From the UHGV virus genome UHGV-0225219: a stretch of 41,659 bases of DNA. One strand, written 5' to 3'. The position numbers and the translations under genes were made by a program. The stretch is from a virus. Shown one piece after another: positions 1,636-40,957 of this stretch. The number at the start of each line of letters is the position of its first letter. The first letter of the stretch is position 1. The notes beneath the pieces are model-generated. The model did not search any database. It was not told where the DNA came from and worked only from the letters and a program-made list of their open reading frames with translations.

Positions 1636-1655
1636 ATATCATTCCTCCTGTGTTG

Positions 1656-1669
1656 TTGCGATATCGCAA
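1656..1669. repeat. Palindrome copy 1 (TTGCGATATCGCAA, 14 bp perfect; 15/16 match to GTTGCGATATCGCAAC)
   Basis: Read directly. It sits 20 bp upstream of the int start, just beyond its RBS. Confidence 0.8.
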
Positions 1670-1792
1670 TAGATTTTGGGTAAAATTAATACGCCCCTTG
1701 CCAGGACGCTCCAGGAATGATATAATTTACTTGCTTAGGGTAATTATATCTTCCAGGCGTACCTGGTAAGAGAAAATCTATGTGAAAAGCTT

Positions 1793-11986: not shown

Positions 11987-13108
11987 ATGGAAGAATTAAC
12001 AACCAGCACGCAGGAGACAGAACCGACACAATCAACATCAGCACGGAAATGGTATGAGGGAGTCAGCCTGGAAGATGCAGAAATTTACATACGTGCTAAT
12101 CTTAAGTCAGCGGCCAGGAGTGTTATTGCAATAGGCTATTACCTCAAATGCGTTTATACAAAAGAGCTATATCAAGAGGCCGGATTTAAAGATGTATATG
12201 AATATGCAAAGGACCGGTTCGGATTCAGCACTTCCACAACATCCCGGTATATGTCACGCAATGACAAGTTTTCCGTGGATGGGAATAGCCCAATCCTGGA
12301 CGAAAAATACAAGGATTTTAACAAGTCTCAGCTCCAGGAAATGTTAAGCCTGGATGCGGAGCAGCTTGAACAGGTCACCCCTGATATGACTGTGGTACAA
12401 ATCAGGGAAATGAGAAAGCCCAAAGAGATACCGTATATTGAGATGCCTGGCCAGATTGAACTGACGGATTTCCCCGGCGTGGATCCGAAAGATGTGGCCG
12501 CATCGGTTCAGGCCAGGGCAGAGATGCAATCCAGTCAGCCAGAGAAGCAAACCTATACGATATCTGCGGAGGACCTCTTGCCAGAGCCAGCACAACCGGA
12601 GCGGGAACAACCCGTTGCGATATCGCAACAAGAAAAACCGATACCAGAATCACAGTCAGAAGTATCACAGGAAACGGAAAGGGCTGAGGAGGGCAGCGGT
12701 TTACCGAAAGAACCAGAGAAGTCCGGGAAGTGTATTCACAGGCCAGAATTTAAATGTACCCTGGAGGAGGTATATAAACTTACCCCTGGTACAGGTGAGG
12801 ATTGCGGCTGTAAATGTTGTTGGGAGTGTGTCAAGCATGGGAATTGTGAGTGGGAGTGCAACAGCTCGTTACATAGGCCGGAGGAACCTAAAGAGGCCAA
12901 GGACTATGGAACCCTGGAGACTTACGATAAAGCTATGTTGCAAAGCATGATAAAAGCTGAACAGGAGCAGCTGGACCGGATGGGGCCGGCCTGGATAGAA
13001 AAACAGCCGTATTATTACACCAAACATATGATGGCGCTGGAAGCATATAAGATGCTATATGCAGCGCACGAAGGGGGAGATATTGGAATTGAACAGAGTG
13101 GAGATTGA
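11987..13108 (+). CDS. HTH DNA-binding protein with acidic linker and Cys/His-rich C-terminal domain
   Basis: 373 aa. N-terminal HTH-like region (…YEYAKDRFGFSTSTTSRYMSRN…), an E/P/Q-rich linker, and C-terminal CxHx…CGCKCCWECVKHGNCEWEC. Palindrome copy 2 lies inside the linker-coding region. Confidence 0.55.
   Translation: MEELTTSTQETEPTQSTSARKWYEGVSLEDAEIYIRANLKSAARSVIAIGYYLKCVYTKELYQEAGFKDVYEYAKDRFGFSTSTTSRYMSRNDKFSVDGNSPILDEKYKDFNKSQLQEMLSLDAEQLEQVTPDMTVVQIREMRKPKEIPYIEMPGQIELTDFPGVDPKDVAASVQARAEMQSSQPEKQTYTISAEDLLPEPAQPEREQPVAISQQEKPIPESQSEVSQETERAEEGSGLPKEPEKSGKCIHRPEFKCTLEEVYKLTPGTGEDCGCKCCWECVKHGNCEWECNSSLHRPEEPKEAKDYGTLETYDKAMLQSMIKAEQEQLDRMGPAWIEKQPYYYTKHMMALEAYKMLYAAHEGGDIGIEQSGD
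12614..12629. repeat. Palindrome copy 2, GTTGCGATATCGCAAC (perfect 16 bp)
   Basis: Read directly. It lies within CDS 11987-13108 and codes PVAISQQ. Confidence 0.9.
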
Positions 13109-19277: not shown

Positions 19278-20626
19278 TGAGTGCGGAGAGATTGCTGCTG
19301 TCGGATAAGTACAAGGCGTTCCTGCGTTGTGATGCGCCGGTGGAGTTCCTGGAGGGTACCACGGCAGCCGGAAAGACTACGGTAGGCCTGTTCAAGTTCA
19401 TGCTTAAGGTAGCCGAAAGCCCAAAGAAGCTGCACATCCTGGCTGCGGATGATACAGGCGCCGCCGAGAAGAACATCATCCAGAAGGACCTGGGTATCCT
19501 GGATGACTTCGGCGTACTGGTGGAGTACAAAGGTAACGGCGGAGGTGGTTATAACATGCCCCACATCCTCTTCCACACATCCGGCGGTGATAAGATAATC
19601 TTTGTTGTCGGCTATGGCAACAAGCGCAAGTGGAAGGATGCACTGGGCGGCCAGTACGGATGCCTGTACATTGATGAGATTAACACGGCCGACATAGAGT
19701 TTGTGCGTGAGGCCGCCATGCGGAGTGATTACCTGATGGCCACGCTCAATCCGGATGACCCTGGCCTAGATGTCTACAAGGAGTATATCAACTGCTCCCG
19801 GCCATTGCCCGAATGGGAATCAGAGACACCAAAGGAAATTAAAGACGAATTGCAAGAGGAGCCAAAACCCGGCTGGGTACATTGGTTCTTTTCTTTTGCC
19901 CATAACCTGGGCCTGAGCAAGGAAAAACTGGAACAGATAATGACCAATACCCCGAAGGGAACGAAAATCTGGAAGAATAAGATTCAAGGCCTGCGTGGTA
20001 AGGCAACCGGATTGATATTCTCCAACTTTGAGCGGTCTAAGCATGTCATCACAGTCCAGCAGGCCAAGGCACTGAAATTTAAAAAGTTCACTGCGGCCCT
20101 GGACACATCCTACTCTTCCAAGTCCCCGGATACCATAGCCATGATATTCCAGGGAATCACGGAGGATAGGAAACTTATCACCCTGTCCGAAAAAGTCTAT
20201 AACAATTCCAAGCTTGACATCCCGCTGGCGCCCAGTGACACAGCAGTCAAGTTTGTGGGCTTCCTGGAGCAGTGCCGGAAGGATTGGGGATTTGCCAAGG
20301 ATGTGTACATAGACAATGCGGACCAGGCGACCATCACGGAGCTGCGCAAATACAAGCGGCTTAAGGGCTGCCTGTATAATTTTTACGATTCCTACAAGCG
20401 ACCGGAGATTTTGGACCGTATCAACCTGCAGCTGGGCTGGATACAGCAGGGCTGTTACCTGGTAGTTGATACCTGCATGGAGCATCTGTCCGAGTTGGAC
20501 CGGTACAGCTGGGATGATGAGAAGGACAAGCCAGAGGACAGGAACGACCATACCATTAATGCCAATCAGTATGCATGGATACCATACCGGAACCTGATTG
20601 GATTTGAGGAGGCTGAGAAGAAATGA
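19277..20626 (+). CDS. terL: Terminase large subunit
   Basis: 449 aa. Walker A motif …LEGTTAAGKTTVG…. C-terminal nuclease region with conserved acidic residues. Start overlaps the terS stop. Confidence 0.9.
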   Translation: MSAERLLLSDKYKAFLRCDAPVEFLEGTTAAGKTTVGLFKFMLKVAESPKKLHILAADDTGAAEKNIIQKDLGILDDFGVLVEYKGNGGGGYNMPHILFHTSGGDKIIFVVGYGNKRKWKDALGGQYGCLYIDEINTADIEFVREAAMRSDYLMATLNPDDPGLDVYKEYINCSRPLPEWESETPKEIKDELQEEPKPGWVHWFFSFAHNLGLSKEKLEQIMTNTPKGTKIWKNKIQGLRGKATGLIFSNFERSKHVITVQQAKALKFKKFTAALDTSYSSKSPDTIAMIFQGITEDRKLITLSEKVYNNSKLDIPLAPSDTAVKFVGFLEQCRKDWGFAKDVYIDNADQATITELRKYKRLKGCLYNFYDSYKRPEILDRINLQLGWIQQGCYLVVDTCMEHLSELDRYSWDDEKDKPEDRNDHTINANQYAWIPYRNLIGFEEAEKK

Positions 20627-22245
20627 GGTGGCTGAACAACATGAATGAGACAATTAAGCGTGGCATTCGTACCTGGCTGAATGTGGTGCCGGCCAGCGGG
20701 AACTGCATCCAGATTAACGAGGTCCTGGACTTCGAGGCTAATGCCATCCGGAACCGCATCTGGTACCGCGGGGATGGCAATGAGCTGGAACAGATGTACC
20801 AGCAGGCTCCCGAGTACGCTGACAAATACAAATTCTGGGCCAGCAGGTGCACTCCGGGTATGGAGATGCGCAAGATACATACCGGTCTGCCTGGGCTGAT
20901 TATCCGCATCCTCTCAGGCATTGTCCTGGATGATATGAATGACTTTGACTTTGCGGATAATGACCGGCAGCGGCAACTGTGGGAGGACATTGCAAAAGAT
21001 AATAAGTTCACTCGTAAAATGGAGAAGGCTTTAAAGGAGGTCCTATACATCGGGGATGGAGCCTTTAAGGTCACGATTGATACGACCGTCAGCGAGTTCC
21101 CCATCCTGGAATGGTATCCAGGGGAACGCGTTGAGATTGTCCGGAACCGGGACCGGGTGAAGGAGGTCGTGTTCAAGACGCCGTATAAGGCTGGCCATCA
21201 GCAGTATGTCCTATATGAGCATTATGGATATGGTTACATATACAACGAGTTGTACAAGGGTGACACTTCGGTGCCCCTCAATGCTATCGACGCCACCAAG
21301 GGCATCAAGGACACGAAGTTTGATGATAATGTCATCCTGGCAGTACCCTTGCAGGTGTATGAGTCCACCAAATATGAAGGACGCGGCGGCAGCATCTTTG
21401 ATGGTAAGCTGGACAGCTTTGACGCCTTTGACGAGGCTTGGTCCCAGTGGATGGATGCCCTACGCGCTGGACGAGCCAGGACATATATTCCTGAGTGCCT
21501 GATACCGCACGACCCAGCGACCGGGCAGATTATTCGCCCCAATTCTTTTGATAATCAGTATTTTGCCTCTGATAACGACATGTCAGAAAGTGCGGATAAC
21601 AAGGTCAACGTGGTGCAGCCAACTATCCCCCACGATAGTTATCTGGCGTCCTATTGTACAGCTTTGGACCTGTGCCTGCAGGGCGTTATCAGCCCATCCA
21701 CTCTGGGGATTGATGTCAAGAAGCTGGACAACGCCGAAGCGCAGCGCGAAAAGGAAAAAGCTACCCTGTACACCCGGAATGCTATTGTGGAGGCTCTGCA
21801 GGAGACTCTTCCGGAGCTGGTCAGCGCGGCAATCAACGCTTGCAATATCCTTCATGGTAAGGGGGTGGAGGAGGTCAAAGTGGATATCCCCTTCGGTGAG
21901 TATGCAAACCCATCCTTTGAGAGCCAGGTGGAGACCCTGGCCAAGGCCCGTCCCGGCGTTCCAATGATGAGCATCGAGGCTCAGGTGGAGGAATTGTATG
22001 GTGATAGCAAGGACGATGCATGGAAACAAGAGGAGATAGCGCGATTGAAGGCAGAGCAGGGCATTGCGAAAGTGGAAGAACCCGGAATCAATACGGCTGC
22101 TGGCAGTTTTCAACTTAACATGAAGGGAGGAAAGCCAGATGAAGGTCAAGGTAATGAACCGTCTGTATCAGATGAGCCAGAAGGAGTACCAGGGACTGCT
22201 GCAGGTGGCAAAGGAACAGGTACCACTGGGTATCTACGCAATTGA
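20623..22245 (+). CDS. Portal protein (SPP1 gp6-like)
   Basis: 540 aa, located directly after terL. The C-terminal tail is disordered and acidic. Confidence 0.8.
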   Translation: MRWLNNMNETIKRGIRTWLNVVPASGNCIQINEVLDFEANAIRNRIWYRGDGNELEQMYQQAPEYADKYKFWASRCTPGMEMRKIHTGLPGLIIRILSGIVLDDMNDFDFADNDRQRQLWEDIAKDNKFTRKMEKALKEVLYIGDGAFKVTIDTTVSEFPILEWYPGERVEIVRNRDRVKEVVFKTPYKAGHQQYVLYEHYGYGYIYNELYKGDTSVPLNAIDATKGIKDTKFDDNVILAVPLQVYESTKYEGRGGSIFDGKLDSFDAFDEAWSQWMDALRAGRARTYIPECLIPHDPATGQIIRPNSFDNQYFASDNDMSESADNKVNVVQPTIPHDSYLASYCTALDLCLQGVISPSTLGIDVKKLDNAEAQREKEKATLYTRNAIVEALQETLPELVSAAINACNILHGKGVEEVKVDIPFGEYANPSFESQVETLAKARPGVPMMSIEAQVEELYGDSKDDAWKQEEIARLKAEQGIAKVEEPGINTAAGSFQLNMKGGKPDEGQGNEPSVSDEPEGVPGTAAGGKGTGTTGYLRN

Positions 22246-22417
22246 GAAGCAGGGGTACGCGGAACTGCGTTGCGATAAATGCAGCAGCGTGACCCAGCTC
22301 AAGGCGTTGACACGGCAATTCAAGGCGCAGGGATTCAATGTGTATGCAAATAAGGGAGTGTATTTGTCAGAAGGAGGCACGCCTGGAGCGGAAGGGGCGC
22401 TGATGAGTGCAACATAA
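22139..22417 (+). CDS. Hypothetical 92-aa protein overlapping the portal 3' end
   Basis: AAGGGAGGAAAG RBS then ATG. It overlaps the portal by about 107 nt in another frame, so whether it is a real gene is uncertain. Confidence 0.3.
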   Translation: MKVKVMNRLYQMSQKEYQGLLQVAKEQVPLGIYAIEKQGYAELRCDKCSSVTQLKALTRQFKAQGFNVYANKGVYLSEGGTPGAEGALMSAT

Positions 22418-24047
22418 TGAGTACGATATCGGCGCCGCCTTCAAAGCCATAGAGGATGAACTTATCAAGTCTATGATACGCAATATGGACCGACATCGGG
22501 CCGAGGAAACCAAAGAGGGTATTGAGTGGTCCATGTGGCAGGCAGAGCAGCTTAAGGCCCTGGAAAAGTATAAGAGGGATAACCGAAAACGGTATGGAAA
22601 GCAGTTTCAGAATCTCAACAAGGAAATAGGTGAGCTGATACGGATATCCAGGCAAAAAGGTAACATGCAGCAGGAAATCCAGATACTGAACGCCATTCGC
22701 AAAGGATTTCCAGCCAGGAAAATCAGCAAAGGTGCCACCGCCGAGTTTTTTAAACTGAATGAACGGAAGCTGGAAGCATTGATCGAGGCCACTACCCACG
22801 ACATGGAAGCGGCGGAGACGGCTGTCCTGCGTAAAGCTAATGATGATTATCGTAAGGCAATCTTCAATGCCCAGGTTTATGCCAATACCGGTGCAGGAAC
22901 CTACGAGAAGGCAGTGGACATGGCTACCAGGGACATGCTCTCACGGGGCCTTAACTGTGTAGAGTATGCCAATGGTGCCCGTCATACCCTGGCAGATTAT
23001 GCCGACATGGCCATCCGGACGGCATCCAAGCGGGCGTATCTGCAAGGAGAAGGAGAGAAGCGTCAAGAATGGGGGATTACTACCGTGATTGTCAGCAAGC
23101 GCGGGAACCCGTGTCCGAAGTGCCTGCCATTTGTCGGTAAGGTCCTGATTGACGACGTCTGGTCCGGCGGAAAGAAATCCGATGGTCCGTATCCCCTCAT
23201 GAGCAAGGCCGTTGCGGCCGGCCTGTATCATCCCAGATGCAAGGACAGCCACACAACGTACTTCCCCGGCATTTCCACGGCGGACGATATCTGGAGTGAA
23301 AAGGAACTGGAAGACATCGGCCAGGCCAATCAGCAGGAGGCTGAACGGAAGTATGCTTCAAGGCAGGTAGAGAAATATGGGCGGCTGGCGGAATATTCTT
23401 TGTCACCAGAAAATCAGAAGCAGTATAAACAGAAATCCGAGAAATGGGAGGGGGAGGCAGGGGAGAGATACACGGTTTCAGATGAGATAAAGGTGTATCG
23501 GGATGATACACCTGAGAAAATGATAGATTTAGTCGATAAATACACGGAGGATGAATTTGTTGTGCTTAAGGAGACGGCTGAACATGCGTATGCGTATGAC
23601 CCGGATACAGACACAATTGTAGTTAACCCAGCCCATCCGTTGTATGAATATTATGACTATAGAGAGGTCATGATACATGAATTGGCGCACCGGATTGACC
23701 ACAACGAGTTTGGAAGCCCAATGAATGTACAGTTTACGGATGCTATTTTAGAATCAGAGAAAAGGTTGCTGAAAGATGCGGATAGATATAATAAATTATT
23801 TGCTCCTGGAGGAGAACTGGAGTATAATAACCTCATCAGCGATATACTGGGGTGCCTGACAGATAATGTGATAGTGGGCGATGCCTATCATGAATCACAA
23901 TATATTGGTATCCCAGGGTATTCAGAGTTGGAAGTGTTTGCAAACGTGTTCACTGCCCTTTACCAAGGGGATGATGTAACGGTTAAATTCCTCAAAGAGG
24001 AGTTGGGTGAATTATATCTTGCATTTTTGAAAGTTGTAGGTGAATAA
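22407..24047 (+). CDS. Head morphogenesis protein (MuF / SPP1 gp7 family) with C-terminal HExxH extension domain
   Basis: The N-terminal two-thirds has MuF-like motifs (…NCVEYANGARHTLADYADMAIRTASKRAYLQGE…). The last roughly 200 aa are AT-richer and contain …EVMIHELAHRIDHNEFGSP…. GTG start. Confidence 0.75.
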   Translation: MQHNEYDIGAAFKAIEDELIKSMIRNMDRHRAEETKEGIEWSMWQAEQLKALEKYKRDNRKRYGKQFQNLNKEIGELIRISRQKGNMQQEIQILNAIRKGFPARKISKGATAEFFKLNERKLEALIEATTHDMEAAETAVLRKANDDYRKAIFNAQVYANTGAGTYEKAVDMATRDMLSRGLNCVEYANGARHTLADYADMAIRTASKRAYLQGEGEKRQEWGITTVIVSKRGNPCPKCLPFVGKVLIDDVWSGGKKSDGPYPLMSKAVAAGLYHPRCKDSHTTYFPGISTADDIWSEKELEDIGQANQQEAERKYASRQVEKYGRLAEYSLSPENQKQYKQKSEKWEGEAGERYTVSDEIKVYRDDTPEKMIDLVDKYTEDEFVVLKETAEHAYAYDPDTDTIVVNPAHPLYEYYDYREVMIHELAHRIDHNEFGSPMNVQFTDAILESEKRLLKDADRYNKLFAPGGELEYNNLISDILGCLTDNVIVGDAYHESQYIGIPGYSELEVFANVFTALYQGDDVTVKFLKEELGELYLAFLKVVGE

Positions 24048-24255: not shown

Positions 24256-24579
24256 ATGGATGATTTCCGGTTGATTTATAAGATACTCCGCATCCTTCAG
24301 AAATCAATGGACTGCGAGGAAATAGATAGGGAAATCCTATCTGCTGAAAGACTCGAACTGTCTGTACCGAAATGGAGCCGTATAATGGCCATGCTGTTGA
24401 ATGAAGGGTATATTACAGGTGGGCAGACATGGAATGCCTTTGACTGCGGATACCCCAGGGTGGCGTTGACAAGGCCTGAGATTACGTTGAAGGGCCTTGA
24501 ATATCTGGAAGAAAATACTTTGATGAAGAAAGCAGCAAACCTCGCAAAAGGAATAAAGGATACAATACCGGGATTATAA
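24256..24579 (+). CDS. YjcQ-like winged-helix phage protein
   Basis: 107 aa. …FRLIYKILRILQKSMDCEEID… is typical of the YjcQ family. Confidence 0.45.
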   Translation: MDDFRLIYKILRILQKSMDCEEIDREILSAERLELSVPKWSRIMAMLLNEGYITGGQTWNAFDCGYPRVALTRPEITLKGLEYLEENTLMKKAANLAKGIKDTIPGL

Positions 24580-24613
24580 CCACCAGTCATTAATGGCCGG
24601 TGGTATTTTATTT
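24579..24613 (+). terminator. Intrinsic terminator (AACCACCAG-loop-CCGGTGGT then ATTTTATTTG)
   Basis: Read directly. It overlaps the yjcQ-like stop codon. Confidence 0.5.
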
Positions 24614-24629
24614 GTTGCGATATCGCAAC
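24614..24629. repeat. Palindrome copy 3, GTTGCGATATCGCAAC (perfect 16 bp)
   Basis: Read directly. It lies between the terminator and the RBS of the DUF2829 gene. Confidence 0.9.
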
Positions 24630-24647
24630 GGAAAGAGAGGGAAACAT

Positions 24648-25142
24648 ATGAATTTTTTGGACGCACTGAATCAGATGAAAAAAGGTATCCCAATGAAACT
24701 CCCGTCCTGGGGAGGGTATTGGTGCTGGGACCCGAAGAAGGAAACCGTCGTCATGTACACAAAGGATAATCAGCGGCTTGATATTCGCGAAACACAAAGA
24801 GTGGAATATACATTGCAGAATGTGCTGTCGGATGAATGGGATGTCGCCAATGGGGAAAACACACCCATCTTGGGTGGAACTGCCACCTTTGGTTTCGGCG
24901 ATGCCGTTAAATACATGAAACGCGGATTAAAAGTTAAAAGACAGGGATGGAATGGGAAAAACCAGTATATCGAACTGGCAACCAGTATCAGCTATAAAAA
25001 TGCAGATGGCGAGATTGTAAACTGCACGCATGATGCCATCGGAAATAAAGCCATAGCGTTTGTTGGCACGAGCGGCGTACAGATGGGATGGCTGGCAAGT
25101 CAGGCAGATATGCTGGCGGAGGACTGGATGTTTGTTGACTGA
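24648..25142 (+). CDS. Tandem DUF2829-domain protein (Tad2-like candidate anti-defence signal sponge)
   Basis: 164 aa. The C-terminal half (…FGFGDAVKYMKRGLKVKRQGWNGKNQYIEL…GWLASQADMLAEDWMFV) matches the DUF2829 signature. The N-terminal half (MNFLDALNQMKKG…SDEWDV) appears to be a second, degenerate copy. Confidence 0.55.
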   Translation: MNFLDALNQMKKGIPMKLPSWGGYWCWDPKKETVVMYTKDNQRLDIRETQRVEYTLQNVLSDEWDVANGENTPILGGTATFGFGDAVKYMKRGLKVKRQGWNGKNQYIELATSISYKNADGEIVNCTHDAIGNKAIAFVGTSGVQMGWLASQADMLAEDWMFVD

Positions 25143-25296
25143 TAAGATTGAGGAGTAAGCACGCAGGATTATCCTGGGTGCTATTTTTACGCCCAAACAC
25201 GAGCATGGCTTTAAACTGCTGCGTGGCCAGTGACACTGATGACAATGGATGAAACGAAAATCACAGGGTGACACCCTTAAAATGGAGGTATTGACG

Positions 25297-25923
25297 ATGA
25301 GAGACATGTTACCAATGAACTTACAGTTATTTGCAGAGCCCGCAGGCGGGGCAGGCGGCGAGGGAGTGGGAGGGGCACAGACCCAGCAGCAGGGAGCCCA
25401 GGCCAGCCAGCAGGCGGCATCCCCAATAATTGATTATGCCAAAATCCAGCAGATGCTGGAGGGAACCCTCGCAGCTAAGGAGGACACGGCCCTGAAAGCC
25501 TACTTCAAGCAGCAGGGACTCAGCCAGGAAGAAGTAGAGCAGGCGATTGCTGCATTCAAGCAGCAGAAGGCGGCATCGCAACCAGATGTGGCTGCGTTAC
25601 AGCAGCAGGCCACCCAAGCCCAGGCCCTCGCCCAACAGGCACAGATGCAGGCCGCGGCAACCATGGCCGCAGTATCCCTGGGAATTGACGCCAAGACAAT
25701 CCCTTATGTCCTCAAGATGGCTGATTTAGGTCAGGTCATGGGACAGGATGGGAAAATCAATGATGAGGCACTTAAGGCAGCCCTGAACAAGGTGCTGGAG
25801 GACGTGCCGGCACTGAAACCCCAGACACCAGGATCCAGCGGATTCATCCAGGTGGGCGCAGCCAGCGGGCAGCAACAGACCCAGACAACGGATGACGCCC
25901 TTAAAAAGGCGTTCGGACTTTAA
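25297..25923 (+). CDS. Scaffolding protein
   Basis: Q/A-rich alpha-helical protein. The N-terminal MNLQLFAEP motif (from 25315) is common in Firmicutes phage scaffold proteins. Positioned just before the capsid gene. Confidence 0.7.
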   Translation: MRDMLPMNLQLFAEPAGGAGGEGVGGAQTQQQGAQASQQAASPIIDYAKIQQMLEGTLAAKEDTALKAYFKQQGLSQEEVEQAIAAFKQQKAASQPDVAALQQQATQAQALAQQAQMQAAATMAAVSLGIDAKTIPYVLKMADLGQVMGQDGKINDEALKAALNKVLEDVPALKPQTPGSSGFIQVGAASGQQQTQTTDDALKKAFGL

Positions 25924-25942
25924 TGAAAGAGAGGATTAAGAA

Positions 25943-26836
25943 ATGGCAGTATATGATTATGCAACAACCTTTACACAGCTGCTCCAGCAGAAATATGCAA
26001 AGGAGTTGTGCTCTGATGCACTGACACAGAGCAATCAGCAGGTGAAATTCATTAACGCCCAGACCATCAAGCTTCCGAGGATGGCAGTGACCGGATACAA
26101 AGACCATACCCGGACACCAGGCTTTAACTCAGGAACGCTCAGTAATGACTGGGAGGCAAAGAAACTGGAACACGACAGGGATGTTGAGTTCTGGATTGAC
26201 CCCATGGACATTGACGAAACAAACCTGACCTTATCCGTAGCAAACATACAGAACACCTTTGAGACCGAACAGGCTATCCCGGAAAAAGATTCCTATCGTT
26301 ATTCCAAACTTCATGCAGAACTGACCGCTTATTCTGGCCGTATCAGTACTGATGTCATCACGGCAGCCAACTTCCTGGAAGCTTTTGATGAGGAGATGGC
26401 GAGAATGGATGAGGCTGGTGTCCCGGAAGAAGGGAGAATGCTGTATGTCACCCCAACCATGAATAAGATTGTGAAGGAGGCGGAAGGACTTCAGAGGGTC
26501 ATGACCGTAACGTCCCCGTCCACAATCAATCGTAAGGTACATAGCCTGGATGATGTGACCATTAAGATGGTGCCTGCGGCCAGGATGAAGACTAAGTATG
26601 ACTTCACTACAGGATGTGTGGCTGCTTCTGATGCGAAGCAGATTAACTGGATTCTGATTCATACCTCTTGCGTGGTATGCCGGGATAAATACAGCTATAT
26701 CAAGCTGTTTACCCCAGGAACAGATTCAAGGACGGCAGATGGGTATTTGTATCAGAACCGTTGCTACGGAGACCTGTTCCTTCTTGAAAAGAAGGTTGAT
26801 GGGTGTGCCATGAATGTGGAAGCGGCCGGAGCGTAA
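25943..26836 (+). CDS. Major capsid protein
   Basis: 297 aa. GAGAGGATTAAG RBS. Positioned after the scaffold gene, in SPP1 gp13-like order. Confidence 0.75.
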   Translation: MAVYDYATTFTQLLQQKYAKELCSDALTQSNQQVKFINAQTIKLPRMAVTGYKDHTRTPGFNSGTLSNDWEAKKLEHDRDVEFWIDPMDIDETNLTLSVANIQNTFETEQAIPEKDSYRYSKLHAELTAYSGRISTDVITAANFLEAFDEEMARMDEAGVPEEGRMLYVTPTMNKIVKEAEGLQRVMTVTSPSTINRKVHSLDDVTIKMVPAARMKTKYDFTTGCVAASDAKQINWILIHTSCVVCRDKYSYIKLFTPGTDSRTADGYLYQNRCYGDLFLLEKKVDGCAMNVEAAGA

Positions 26837-39081: not shown

Positions 39082-39285
39082 ATGGCAGAATCAACAGGAA
39101 AACATGCAGCGCATATTCCGGGAAATGGGGGATACCTGGCAGAGGGGCCAGACCTGCAGGAAAAACATCCCACCCCATACCTGTATGATGCACCAACAGA
39201 CACGCCGCATCCGGGTAAGCACCAGAGCGGTGTAGGCGGCCCAAGTGACCGTAACAATAATGGCGTAGACGACGAAAAGGAGTAG
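39082..39285 (+). CDS. Small hydrophilic protein between holin and endolysin
   Basis: AAAAAGGAAAGAGAGG RBS then ATG 39082. Gly/Pro/His-rich. Confidence 0.35.
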   Translation: MAESTGKHAAHIPGNGGYLAEGPDLQEKHPTPYLYDAPTDTPHPGKHQSGVGGPSDRNNNGVDDEKE

Positions 39286-39300
39286 TTGCGATATCGCAAC
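39285..39300. repeat. Palindrome copy 4, GTTGCGATATCGCAAC (perfect 16 bp)
   Basis: Read directly. It abuts the stop codon of the small ORF. Confidence 0.9.
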
Positions 39301-40315: not shown

Positions 40316-40957
40316 TTATAACATGCAAAACAATTGGACTAAACATTTTCCTTTAATATTTGTTTCATCTCCATCCAGTTTCCTTCTACCAAAGACCTTA
40401 AATTTGTTTTTCTCATAAAATCGTATTAATTTTTCTTCTTCTTCGCATTCCAGATAAACAAACTTTCCACCGACTTCGTTTTGGATTAAATATGCTTTTT
40501 CGATTGCCATTTGTAATAAATCTGTACCGGAAATAAGACAATCATTTCCATTGGCAAAATTTTTCCCCAATTGTCCTATTAATGGCGCAGAAACCATGTA
40601 CTGGTTGGTTTTCTCGTTAAAAATCCCATGTTCACGGAGTTTTCTCGCCTCTCTGCTGCTAACGGATCCGCGGTCAATACAGATAACTTTTGATGCAATG
40701 GCATAGTATCCAACTAACTCCATCGCCTTTTTATCATCGGTTTCCCAAAACACCAAATTCGTTTTTGCAAAATTGCGTGCAGAGAACACAATAGCTTTAT
40801 TTCGCAAAAAGTCTTCCACATCCTTATTAAGAGGACACACGAAAGAGGAGAGGATTGATTTTACTTTTTCCTCTCCTATGGCCTCTATTAGTTCATTTAA
40901 TTTAATCTGTATAAAATGTGTTTTCGTTGCAAATTGTGGCATGTTATTTTCTATCAA
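40316..40957 (-). CDS. GNAT-like acetyltransferase-fold protein (candidate toxin/cargo)
   Basis: 213 aa at about 35% GC. C-terminal …KFVYLECEEEEKLIRFYEKNKFKVFG… is a GNAT motif-B-like strand-helix. …LIGQLGKNFANG… is a plausible acetyl-CoA loop. Confidence 0.4.
   Translation of the reverse strand: MIENNMPQFATKTHFIQIKLNELIEAIGEEKVKSILSSFVCPLNKDVEDFLRNKAIVFSARNFAKTNLVFWETDDKKAMELVGYYAIASKVICIDRGSVSSREARKLREHGIFNEKTNQYMVSAPLIGQLGKNFANGNDCLISGTDLLQMAIEKAYLIQNEVGGKFVYLECEEEEKLIRFYEKNKFKVFGRRKLDGDETNIKGKCLVQLFCML

What the first reader, a model, noticed from the sequence alone, without database searches (positions are those of the whole stretch)
24648..25142. Tandem DUF2829 (Tad2-like) protein: candidate immune-signal sponge
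The C-terminal half carries the DUF2829 hallmark (…KRGLKVKRQGWNGKNQYIEL…SQADMLAEDWMFV). The N-terminal half (MNFLDALNQMKKG…SDEWDV) looks like a second diverged copy. DUF2829 is the fold of Tad2, which sequesters Thoeris gcADPR signals and, in some homologues, other cyclic-nucleotide signals. A duplicated DUF2829 in a temperate Clostridia-type phage could bind two ligands. The gene sits in the head module directly downstream of a terminator plus the 16-bp palindrome, so it appears to be separately regulated.
Basis: partly seen in the sequence, partly recalled or inferred. Interest (0 to 1): 0.7.

Follow-up and report, generated by a model that had tools for sequence, protein, structure and literature searches.

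The report
Two-domain Tad2-like phage sponge gene
A prophage of the gut bacterium Enterocloster bolteae carries a small gene whose protein joins two copies of the Tad2 fold, which phages use to soak up bacterial alarm molecules; the family is known, but this widespread fused form, with one altered yet strongly conserved copy, was not found described in the papers searched.

Summary
Window 24648-25142 (+) encodes a 164-aa protein. Residues 81-164 are a canonical Tad2/DUF2829 domain: Pfam PF11195 scores 70.5 bits, and the domain aligns end to end with SPO1 Tad2. All four gcADPR-contact residues are kept (W101, N102, W148, D154).

Residues 1-66 alone miss the Pfam cut-off (13.6 vs 25 bits). Three other tests show they are a real, diverged Tad2 fold. 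Profile-profile comparison with the C domain gives 95% probability. The domain modelled alone (pLDDT 96) hits only Tad2 structures. A 51%-identical stand-alone relative passes the Pfam cut-off.

The N domain is not decaying. Its signature W21-G23-Y24-W25-R47-T55-N58-W64 is intact in 89 of 93 family members. In distant members it is more conserved than the C domain.

The exact protein is already public as [quoted passage not shown] of Enterocloster bolteae. The fused family is common in prophages of gut Clostridia. It sits at two late-operon hotspots: the head module and the lysis module.

The gene lies between terminator-like hairpins, and the 16-bp palindrome sits just upstream. Sponge function, a second ligand and separate regulation are inferences, not shown. 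Verdict: new architectural variant of a known family, moderate interest.

The parts
24648..25142 (+). Complete ORF (164 aa plus stop): two-domain Tad2-like protein
   Evidence: phrog_1048 covers the whole length (E=3.5e-52). The exact sequence is public as a DUF2829 / Thoeris anti-defense 2-like domain-containing protein of Enterocloster bolteae.
24648..24845 (+). N-terminal domain (aa 1-66): short, diverged Tad2 fold of the 'LPSWGGYW ... DIRET ... YTxxN ... DEW' type. It lacks the beta2-beta3 insertion.
   Evidence: hhalign against the C-domain profile: 95% probability. AF2 pLDDT 96.3, and the top 14 Foldseek PDB hits are all Tad2. Pfam on this half alone is sub-threshold at 13.6 bits. The octet W21-G23-Y24-W25-R47-T55-N58-W64 is kept in 89 of 93 family members.
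24846..24887 (+). Conserved, confidently modelled linker (aa 67-80, A67, N71, L75, G76, G77 nearly invariant)
   Evidence: Alignments. pLDDT is about 94-96 across residues 61-80 in the whole-protein model.
24888..25139 (+). C-terminal domain (aa 81-164): canonical SPO1-type Tad2/DUF2829 domain with W101, N102, W148, D154
   Evidence: PF11195 70.5 bits. Aligns end to end with SPO1 Tad2, E=7e-11. All 24 significant Foldseek PDB hits are Tad2 structures, TMt up to 0.82. Contact residues of SPO1 Tad2 (W25, N26, W73, D79) are taken. The quartet is intact in 79 of 93 family members.
24579..24604 (+). Upstream intrinsic-terminator-like hairpin followed by the tail UAUUUUAUUU
   Evidence: RNAfold -13.7 kcal/mol, z=-3.9. 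A homologous hairpin precedes the gene in many unrelated loci.
24614..24629 (.). 16-bp perfect palindrome GTTGCGATATCGCAAC, ending 18 nt before the start codon
   Evidence: Four copies in the window against 0.17 expected. Related palindromes of the form TGCG-N4-CGCA flank homologues in 15 loci against about 0.6 expected. More than 117 IMG/VR contigs carry the exact 16-mer.
24635..24641 (+). Ribosome-binding site GAGAGGG, 6 nt before the ATG
   Evidence: Read directly from the sequence.
25158..25182 (+). Downstream terminator-like hairpin followed by AUUUUUA

Best explanation
The gene encodes a covalently fused pair of Tad2-fold domains. It most likely acts as a phage sponge for TIR-derived ADP-ribose-type immune signals (Thoeris 3'cADPR / gcADPR or a relative).

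The C-terminal domain is a standard SPO1-type Tad2 with an intact ligand-contact set. The N-terminal domain is a specialised, strongly constrained paralogue. It keeps the two aromatic pocket positions (W21, Y54) but has G22 and N58 where Tad2 has Asn and Asp.

In Tad2 homotetramers each pocket is built by two protomers. The fused protein therefore probably dimerises into a four-domain pseudo-tetramer, in which N-type and C-type domains jointly build the assembly and its pockets.

The gene is a mobile accessory cassette of the form hairpin, optional palindrome, RBS, ORF, hairpin. It is inserted at late-operon junctions, so it is probably made together with head proteins.

Shown here: domain identities, predicted folds, residue conservation, distribution and cassette anatomy.
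Inferred: ligand binding, oligomeric state, pocket composition and timing of expression.
For: Family and fold:
- PF11195 hit E=2e-21 with two stretches.
- End-to-end alignment to SPO1 Tad2 and other solved Tad2 proteins.
- AF2 model with pLDDT 90.8 and pTM 0.77, whose significant PDB hits are exclusively Tad2.
- The N domain alone is also Tad2-like by fold and by profile-profile comparison.

Ligand site:
- The SPO1 Tad2 contacts W25/N26/W73/D79 correspond to W101/N102/W148/D154 here. They are kept in 79 of 93 family members.
- The N-domain invariants map onto the same pocket-forming elements in the hhalign register.

Family function was tested by others:
- 4 of 5 diverse Tad2 homologues inhibited Thoeris.
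- Tad2 homologues between them inhibit Thoeris types I, II and IV, CBASS and Pycsar.

N-type and C-type working as partners:
- Bacillus phage Waukesha92 encodes a WGGYW-type and a GWNGK-type Tad2 gene as an overlapping pair.
- The pTM of 0.77 for a 66 + 84 residue protein suggests a defined interdomain packing (inference).

Accessory-cassette character:
- Homologues sit either between the minor capsid and scaffold genes or next to holin/endolysin.
- The gene is flanked by hairpins.
- Staphylococcal and streptococcal Thoeris are triggered by the major capsid protein (PMC12578639). This makes co-expression with head genes sensible (inference).
Against: - No binding, oligomerisation or anti-defence data exist for this protein or for any WGGYW-type domain.
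- Two of the four contact positions are changed in the N domain.
- No multimer model or coordinates could be obtained, so the composition of the pocket is a guess.
- Stand-alone N-type genes exist without a C-type partner (CP51 gp006, RG-TP1 gp24). The N domain may therefore act independently rather than as a partner.
- Whether Enterocloster bolteae carries Thoeris or other TIR systems was not tested.
- Late-operon placement is unusual if a sponge must act early.
Confidence: 0.55

Rival explanations
1. Two independent sponges in one chain. The N-type domain is a separate Tad2 subfamily with its own homotypic pocket and a different ligand. The fusion simply combines two specificities, which is the first reader's 'two ligands' idea.
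For: - N-type domains occur as stand-alone genes in the same genomic slot (CP51 gp006 and RG-TP1 gp24), and BFVD holds an 84-aa stand-alone match.
- The N-type pocket positions are invariant but chemically different: W/G/Y/N instead of W/N/W/D.
- Tad2 homologues are known to differ in ligand.
Against: - No ligand is known for any WGGYW-type protein.
- In a dimer of the fused protein, homotypic N-N and C-C pockets would each exist only once.
- The conserved, confidently modelled linker and the high pTM suggest an obligate N-C unit.
Confidence: 0.2
2. Only the C domain binds ligand. The N domain is a ligand-blind scaffold that replaces two protomers of the tetramer, for stability or stoichiometry control.
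For: - The N domain lacks the Asn and Asp contacts and the beta2-beta3 insertion.
- It evolves more slowly than the C domain in distant members, 55% against 40% identity. This fits a constant structural role while the C domain diversifies.
Against: The invariant N-domain residues (W21, G23, Y24, W25, R47, T55, N58) map to the pocket-forming loops rather than to a hydrophobic core pattern. That looks like a functional site.
Confidence: 0.15
3. Not an immune-signal sponge. The protein has another role, for example a head-assembly accessory, a nucleic-acid-binding protein or an anti-CRISPR, as AcrIIA7 was first described.
For: - The gene lies inside the head module, on the same strand as the late genes.
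- One PDB relative is named AcrIIA7.
- No experiment exists on this subfamily.
Against: - The gene moves between the head and lysis modules and is flanked by hairpins. It is therefore an accessory gene, not a core structural one.
- The anti-CRISPR activity of AcrIIA7 could not be reproduced, whereas its sponge activity was shown.
- The full gcADPR contact set is under purifying selection.
Confidence: 0.07

Closest known systems
SPO1 Tad2 (gp34.65; PDB 8SME/8SMF/8SMG), the founding anti-Thoeris sponge
   Same: The C domain (aa 81-164) has the same length class and aligns end to end (E=7e-11, about 30% identity). It has the same predicted fold (TMt up to 0.8), the same four ligand-contact residues and the same short insertion (47 against 48 residues between the two Trp).
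   Different: SPO1 Tad2 is an 89-aa single-domain protein that forms a homotetramer. The protein here is a 164-aa fusion carrying an extra diverged N-terminal Tad2 fold. It cannot form the same homotetramer of identical units.
HgmTad2 / AcrIIA7 and SptTad2 (PDB 8KBI-8KBM, 8WJD), which bind gcADPR and cyclic dinucleotides in separate pockets
   Same: Same family and fold. They share the GWNGK and SQxDxLAxDW motifs. They are the precedent for one Tad2 protein handling two ligands.
   Different: Their second pocket is built by a 35-41-residue insertion that the C domain here lacks. Any second specificity here would have to come from the N-type domain, by a different route.
Split Tad2 pairs in Bacillus phages (Waukesha92 gp04 + gp03; BceA1/SpaA1 P60 + P61)
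   Same: A WGGYW-type Tad2 gene is followed by a GWNGK-type Tad2 gene in the same order as the two domains here, with overlapping stop and start codons.
   Different: They are two separate polypeptides, and both pass Pfam clearly. The first gene keeps the canonical C-terminal QADMLAEDW motif, including the Asp. Their function is also untested.
Stand-alone WGGYW-type proteins (C. perfringens phage CP51 gp006, R. gnavus phage RG-TP1 gp24) and PHROG 1048
   Same: They are 51-55% identical to the N domain. They occupy the same slot between the minor head protein and the scaffold gene. PHROG 1048 already groups the full-length family.
   Different: They have no fused C-type domain. All are annotated as hypothetical, DUF2829 or unknown function.

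Membership tests
Tad2 / DUF2829 (Pfam PF11195) | Pfam PF11195 match above the gathering score (25 bits) | tested here: met
   Whole protein 76.7 bits, C half 70.5 bits. The N half alone scores 13.6 bits and does not pass. Its 51%-identical stand-alone relative CP51 gp006 scores 27.8 bits and passes.
Tad2 / DUF2829 (Pfam PF11195) | Tad2 fold: N-terminal helix packed on an antiparallel beta-sheet with a short C-terminal helix | tested here: met
   Predicted structures only. Whole protein pLDDT 90.8, N domain pLDDT 96.3. All significant Foldseek PDB hits for both are Tad2 chains.
Tad2 / DUF2829 (Pfam PF11195) | gcADPR-contact residues W25, N26, W73, D79 (SPO1 numbering) | tested here: met
   C domain: W101, N102, W148, D154, kept in 79 of 93 family members. 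N domain: W21, G22, Y54, N58. The aromatic positions are kept, but the Asn and Asp are replaced.
Tad2 / DUF2829 (Pfam PF11195) | Homotetramer whose pockets form between non-dimeric protomers | not testable with these tools
   No multimer prediction and no model coordinates were available. The fused architecture implies a different assembly, at most a pseudo-tetramer made of two chains.
Tad2 / DUF2829 (Pfam PF11195) | Binds and sequesters Thoeris signal, and rescues phage from Thoeris | not testable with these tools
   This requires biochemistry and infection assays. It has been shown only for other family members.
HgmTad2-type dual-ligand Tad2 | Long (35-41 residue) insertion between beta2 and beta5 that forms the cyclic-dinucleotide pocket | tested here: not met
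   W-to-W spacing is 47 residues here, against 48 in SPO1 Tad2 and 66 in HgmTad2.
Phage moron (autonomous accessory cassette) | Accessory gene at variable positions, with its own promoter and terminator | tested here: inconclusive
   Variable position between head and lysis modules and a downstream terminator-like hairpin are met. No sigma-70-like promoter was detected between the upstream hairpin and the start codon.

The most novel reading that the evidence does not exclude
The WGGYW-type N domain is a previously unrecognised Tad2 subfamily. Fused to, or paired with, a canonical Tad2 domain, it would build an asymmetric heterotypic pocket, or a second pocket. This would give a covalently linked hetero-oligomeric sponge whose ligand range differs from all characterised Tad2 homotetramers. 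Candidate ligands include a TIR-derived signal used by gut Clostridia that has not yet been identified.
Probability: 0.3. Interest if true: 0.6.

Novelty: new variant of a known kind. Interest (0 to 1): 0.4.

Why it matters
Tad2 is one of the main phage sponge families, and its ligand range is being actively mapped. All solved and tested members known to me from the papers read here are single-domain homotetramers.

A fused two-domain form is carried by a very common Enterocloster bolteae prophage: the exact protein is in 2310 blocks of the assembly index and was seen on at least 1000 contigs (the counter's cap). The form also occurs in prophages of at least 80 Clostridia species. It would be a natural system for two questions. 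One is how sponge pockets can be made asymmetric. The other is which immune signals matter in human gut Firmicutes, where Thoeris-like signalling is barely studied.

It is a directly testable candidate, because the protein is small, soluble-looking and confidently modelled. If the N domain proves to be only a scaffold, the result is an ordinary Tad2 with an appendage.

Tried and rejected
- Foldseek against AFDB50 was unavailable. BFVD held no full-length two-domain match (best TMq 0.45).
- NCBIfam gave no relevant model.
- Megablast of the late region against annotated phages found only a short stretch (query 19939-21342, 81-83% identity) in Enterocloster phages, so no annotated close relative exists there.
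- Supplementary tables of the 2025 sponge-diversity preprint were not held. I could not check whether any tested Tad2 homologue carries the N-type domain.
- Literature searches for tandem, duplicated or Lachnospiraceae Tad2 found nothing relevant.
- An HgmTad2-like cyclic-dinucleotide pocket was considered and rejected, because the insertion is too short.
- YjcQ as the binder of the palindrome was considered and rejected. Other loci that have the palindrome upstream show no YjcQ gene nearby; the one other locus with a YjcQ hit (L069) lacks the palindrome.
- The alternative GTG start at 24600 was rejected by homology.
- The sigma-70 promoter scan found nothing between the hairpin and the start codon.

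Full report
**Observation**

The ORF is as described: ATG at 24648, TGA at 25140-25142, 164 aa. A GAGAGGG ribosome-binding site lies 6 nt upstream. A longer GTG-initiated frame from 24600 exists, but every full-length homologue starts M[KN]F at the ATG.

Pfam PF11195 (Tad2-like, formerly DUF2829) matches the whole protein at E=2e-21 with two stretches. The C half alone scores 70.5 bits. The N half alone scores only 13.6 bits, below the 25-bit cut-off. PHROG 1048, of unknown function, covers the entire length at E=3.5e-52, so the two-domain form is an existing phage family.

**The C-terminal domain**

Residues 81-163 align without major gaps to residues 6-89 of SPO1 Tad2 (8sme, E=7e-11). They also align to ModTad2, SptTad2 and HgmTad2/AcrIIA7.

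Yirmiya et al. report that SPO1 Tad2 holds 1''-3' gcADPR through W25, N26, W73 and D79 of two protomers. In the phmmer register these are W101, N102, W148 and D154, all present.

The spacing between the two Trp residues is 47. It is 48 in SPO1 Tad2 and 66 in HgmTad2, whose 35-41-residue insertion builds the cyclic-dinucleotide pocket. The C domain is therefore of the short, SPO1 type. The known second pocket is not expected.

**The N-terminal domain**

I extracted 54 N-type and 100 C-type domains from the 50%-identity representatives. I then compared the two profiles.
- hhalign gives 94.5-95.4% probability, E=1.6e-8. The register is W21=W101, G22=N102, Y54=W148, N58=D154.
- An HMM of the N domain, searched against all PDB sequences, returns Tad2 chains as 6 of its 7 best hits. 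The E-values are marginal (0.016-0.3), but the register is the same.
- AlphaFold2 models are confident. The whole protein has pLDDT 90.8 and pTM 0.77. The N domain alone has pLDDT 96.3.
- Foldseek against the PDB returns only Tad2 structures as significant hits for the whole model (24 hits, TMt up to 0.82).
- For the N domain alone, the top 14 hits are all Tad2 (probability 1.00, TMq 0.70-0.77). The next hit has E=1.1.
- A 51%-identical stand-alone protein, C. perfringens phage CP51 gp006 (68 aa), passes Pfam's own cut-off at 27.8 bits.

The N half is thus a genuine Tad2 fold. It is shortened by loss of the beta2-beta3 insertion.

**Is the N domain decaying?**

No. I compared 93 unique full-length family members, drawn from 80 species genomes plus representatives.
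- The octet W21-G23-Y24-W25-R47-T55-N58-W64 is intact in 89 of them.
- The C-domain quartet W-N-W-D is intact in 79.
- Among the 35 most distant members, the N domain keeps 55% identity to the window protein and the C domain only 40%.
- The invariant N-domain residues fall on the elements that line the pocket in Tad2: the beta1-beta2 loop, the strand before helix alpha3, and helix alpha3.
- The linker (A67, N71, L75, G76, G77) is also conserved and confidently modelled.

I read this as a specialised paralogue with a functional site. It has Gly and Asn where canonical Tad2 has Asn and Asp.

**Relatives and architecture**

Several arrangements of these domains exist.
- In Bacillus phages Waukesha92, BceA1, SpaA1 and phi4J1, the two halves match two adjacent Tad2 genes. 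In Waukesha92 the stop and start overlap. The first gene carries the WGGYW motif and the second carries GWNGK. Both pass Pfam strongly.
- Stand-alone N-type genes occur in CP51 and in R. gnavus phage RG-TP1. Both sit directly between the minor head protein and the scaffold gene.
- Other combinations exist: P0188 is a tandem of two canonical Tad2 domains, and P0134 and P0158 carry extra copies.

Duplication, splitting and fusion of Tad2 units are therefore recurrent. This fits an oligomer built from several Tad2 folds.

**Distribution and context**

The exact protein lies in 2310 blocks of the assembly index, always in the same prophage head module. It is publicly named "DUF2829 domain-containing protein" and "Thoeris anti-defense 2-like domain-containing protein" of Enterocloster bolteae. 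The Tad2 assignment is therefore not new; the tandem reading is.

A genome scan found the family in at least 80 species of Clostridia, including Blautia, Mediterraneibacter, Coprococcus, Dorea, Eubacterium, Clostridium and Paraclostridium.

Where I could classify the neighbours, about 19 loci place the gene between the minor capsid protein and the scaffold/major capsid genes. About 12 place it next to holin or endolysin. It is always on the late-gene strand. It is an accessory gene that lands at two module junctions.

**Cassette anatomy and regulation**

Upstream lies a hairpin at 24579-24604 (-13.7 kcal/mol, z=-3.9) with a U-rich tail. The 16-bp palindrome at 24614-24629 follows, and it can itself fold at -10.4 kcal/mol. 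Downstream of the stop is a second hairpin at 25158-25182 with AUUUUUA.

A clearly homologous upstream hairpin travels with the gene in many otherwise different loci. No sigma-70-like promoter was found between the hairpin and the start codon. "Separately regulated" therefore remains a hypothesis.

The palindrome is not specific to this gene.
- It occurs 4 times in the window: before the integrase, inside a replication-module ORF, before this gene, and between holin and endolysin.
- Its flanks are not conserved.
- Variants with GACGTC or GCCGGC cores lie just upstream or just downstream of homologues in 15 loci, against about 0.6 expected.
- The exact 16-mer is in more than 117 IMG/VR contigs. 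There it usually lies 13-20 nt before the start of small accessory ORFs, about 16 nt before integrases, or 50-80 nt before endolysins.

**Mechanism**

The best-supported reading is a sponge for TIR-derived ADPR-type signals. The family has been tested by others. Four of five diverse homologues blocked Thoeris. Tested homologues collectively block Thoeris I, II and IV, CBASS and Pycsar.

Tad2 pockets are formed by two protomers of a homotetramer. A chain with two Tad2 folds would then most simply dimerise into a four-domain pseudo-tetramer. Whether its pockets are N-C, or N-N plus C-C, could not be tested.

Capsid proteins trigger Thoeris in staphylococci and streptococci (PMC12578639). Production alongside head proteins would therefore be well timed. 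That step is inference.

**Novelty and verdict**

I found no paper that describes a fused or heteromeric Tad2, or the WGGYW-type domain. The gene is a member of a known family with a new, widespread architecture. Function is untested. Interest is moderate.

Noticed in passing
window 1655-1670, 12614-12629, 24614-24629, 39285-39300: The 16-bp perfect palindrome GTTGCGATATCGCAAC occurs 4 times (one copy has 1 mismatch) against 0.17 expected. Its flanks are not conserved. The copies lie about 20 nt before the integrase start, inside a replication-module ORF, 18 nt before the Tad2-like gene, and between holin and endolysin. More than 117 IMG/VR contigs carry the exact 16-mer, mostly just upstream of small accessory ORFs, integrases and endolysins. 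Core variants (GACGTC, GCCGGC) keep the symmetry. It may be an operator or an RNA hairpin, and its binder is unknown.
   Followed up: partly
window 24579-24604 and 25158-25182: Terminator-like hairpins lie on both sides of the Tad2-like gene. The putative scaffold and major capsid genes (25249-26836) therefore sit downstream of two apparent terminators in the late operon. This implies antitermination, leaky termination or an internal promoter.
   Followed up: no
window 24256-24579 (+): A YjcQ-family winged-helix protein (PF09639, 93 bits; phrog_3675) is encoded in the head module immediately upstream. It looks like another accessory gene. It is not linked to the palindrome in other loci.
   Followed up: partly
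window 22407-24047 (+): The minor capsid protein (PF06152) carries a C-terminal extension with an HELAH motif and a weak hit to the zincin-like MPTase-PolyVal metallopeptidase (E=0.005). It may be a head-associated protease or a polyvalent-protein-type domain.
   Followed up: no
window 40316-40957 (-): An acetyltransferase-like gene (phrog_1758, E=1e-42) lies on the opposite strand just after the lysis genes. It may be a lysogenic-conversion gene or the start of host DNA.
   Followed up: no
L008 2707-3171 (C. perfringens phage CP51 gp007): The stand-alone N-type Tad2-like gene of CP51 is followed, with overlapping stop and start, by a protein with a Phage_gp49_66 domain (PF13876) instead of a canonical Tad2. 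This may be a different partner for the N-type domain.
   Followed up: no
proteins P0188, P0134, P0158: Other multi-Tad2 architectures exist. P0188 is a tandem of two canonical GWNGK/SQxDxLAEDW domains. P0134 has three domains. P0158 has two N-type domains. Duplication and fusion have happened repeatedly in this family.
   Followed up: partly
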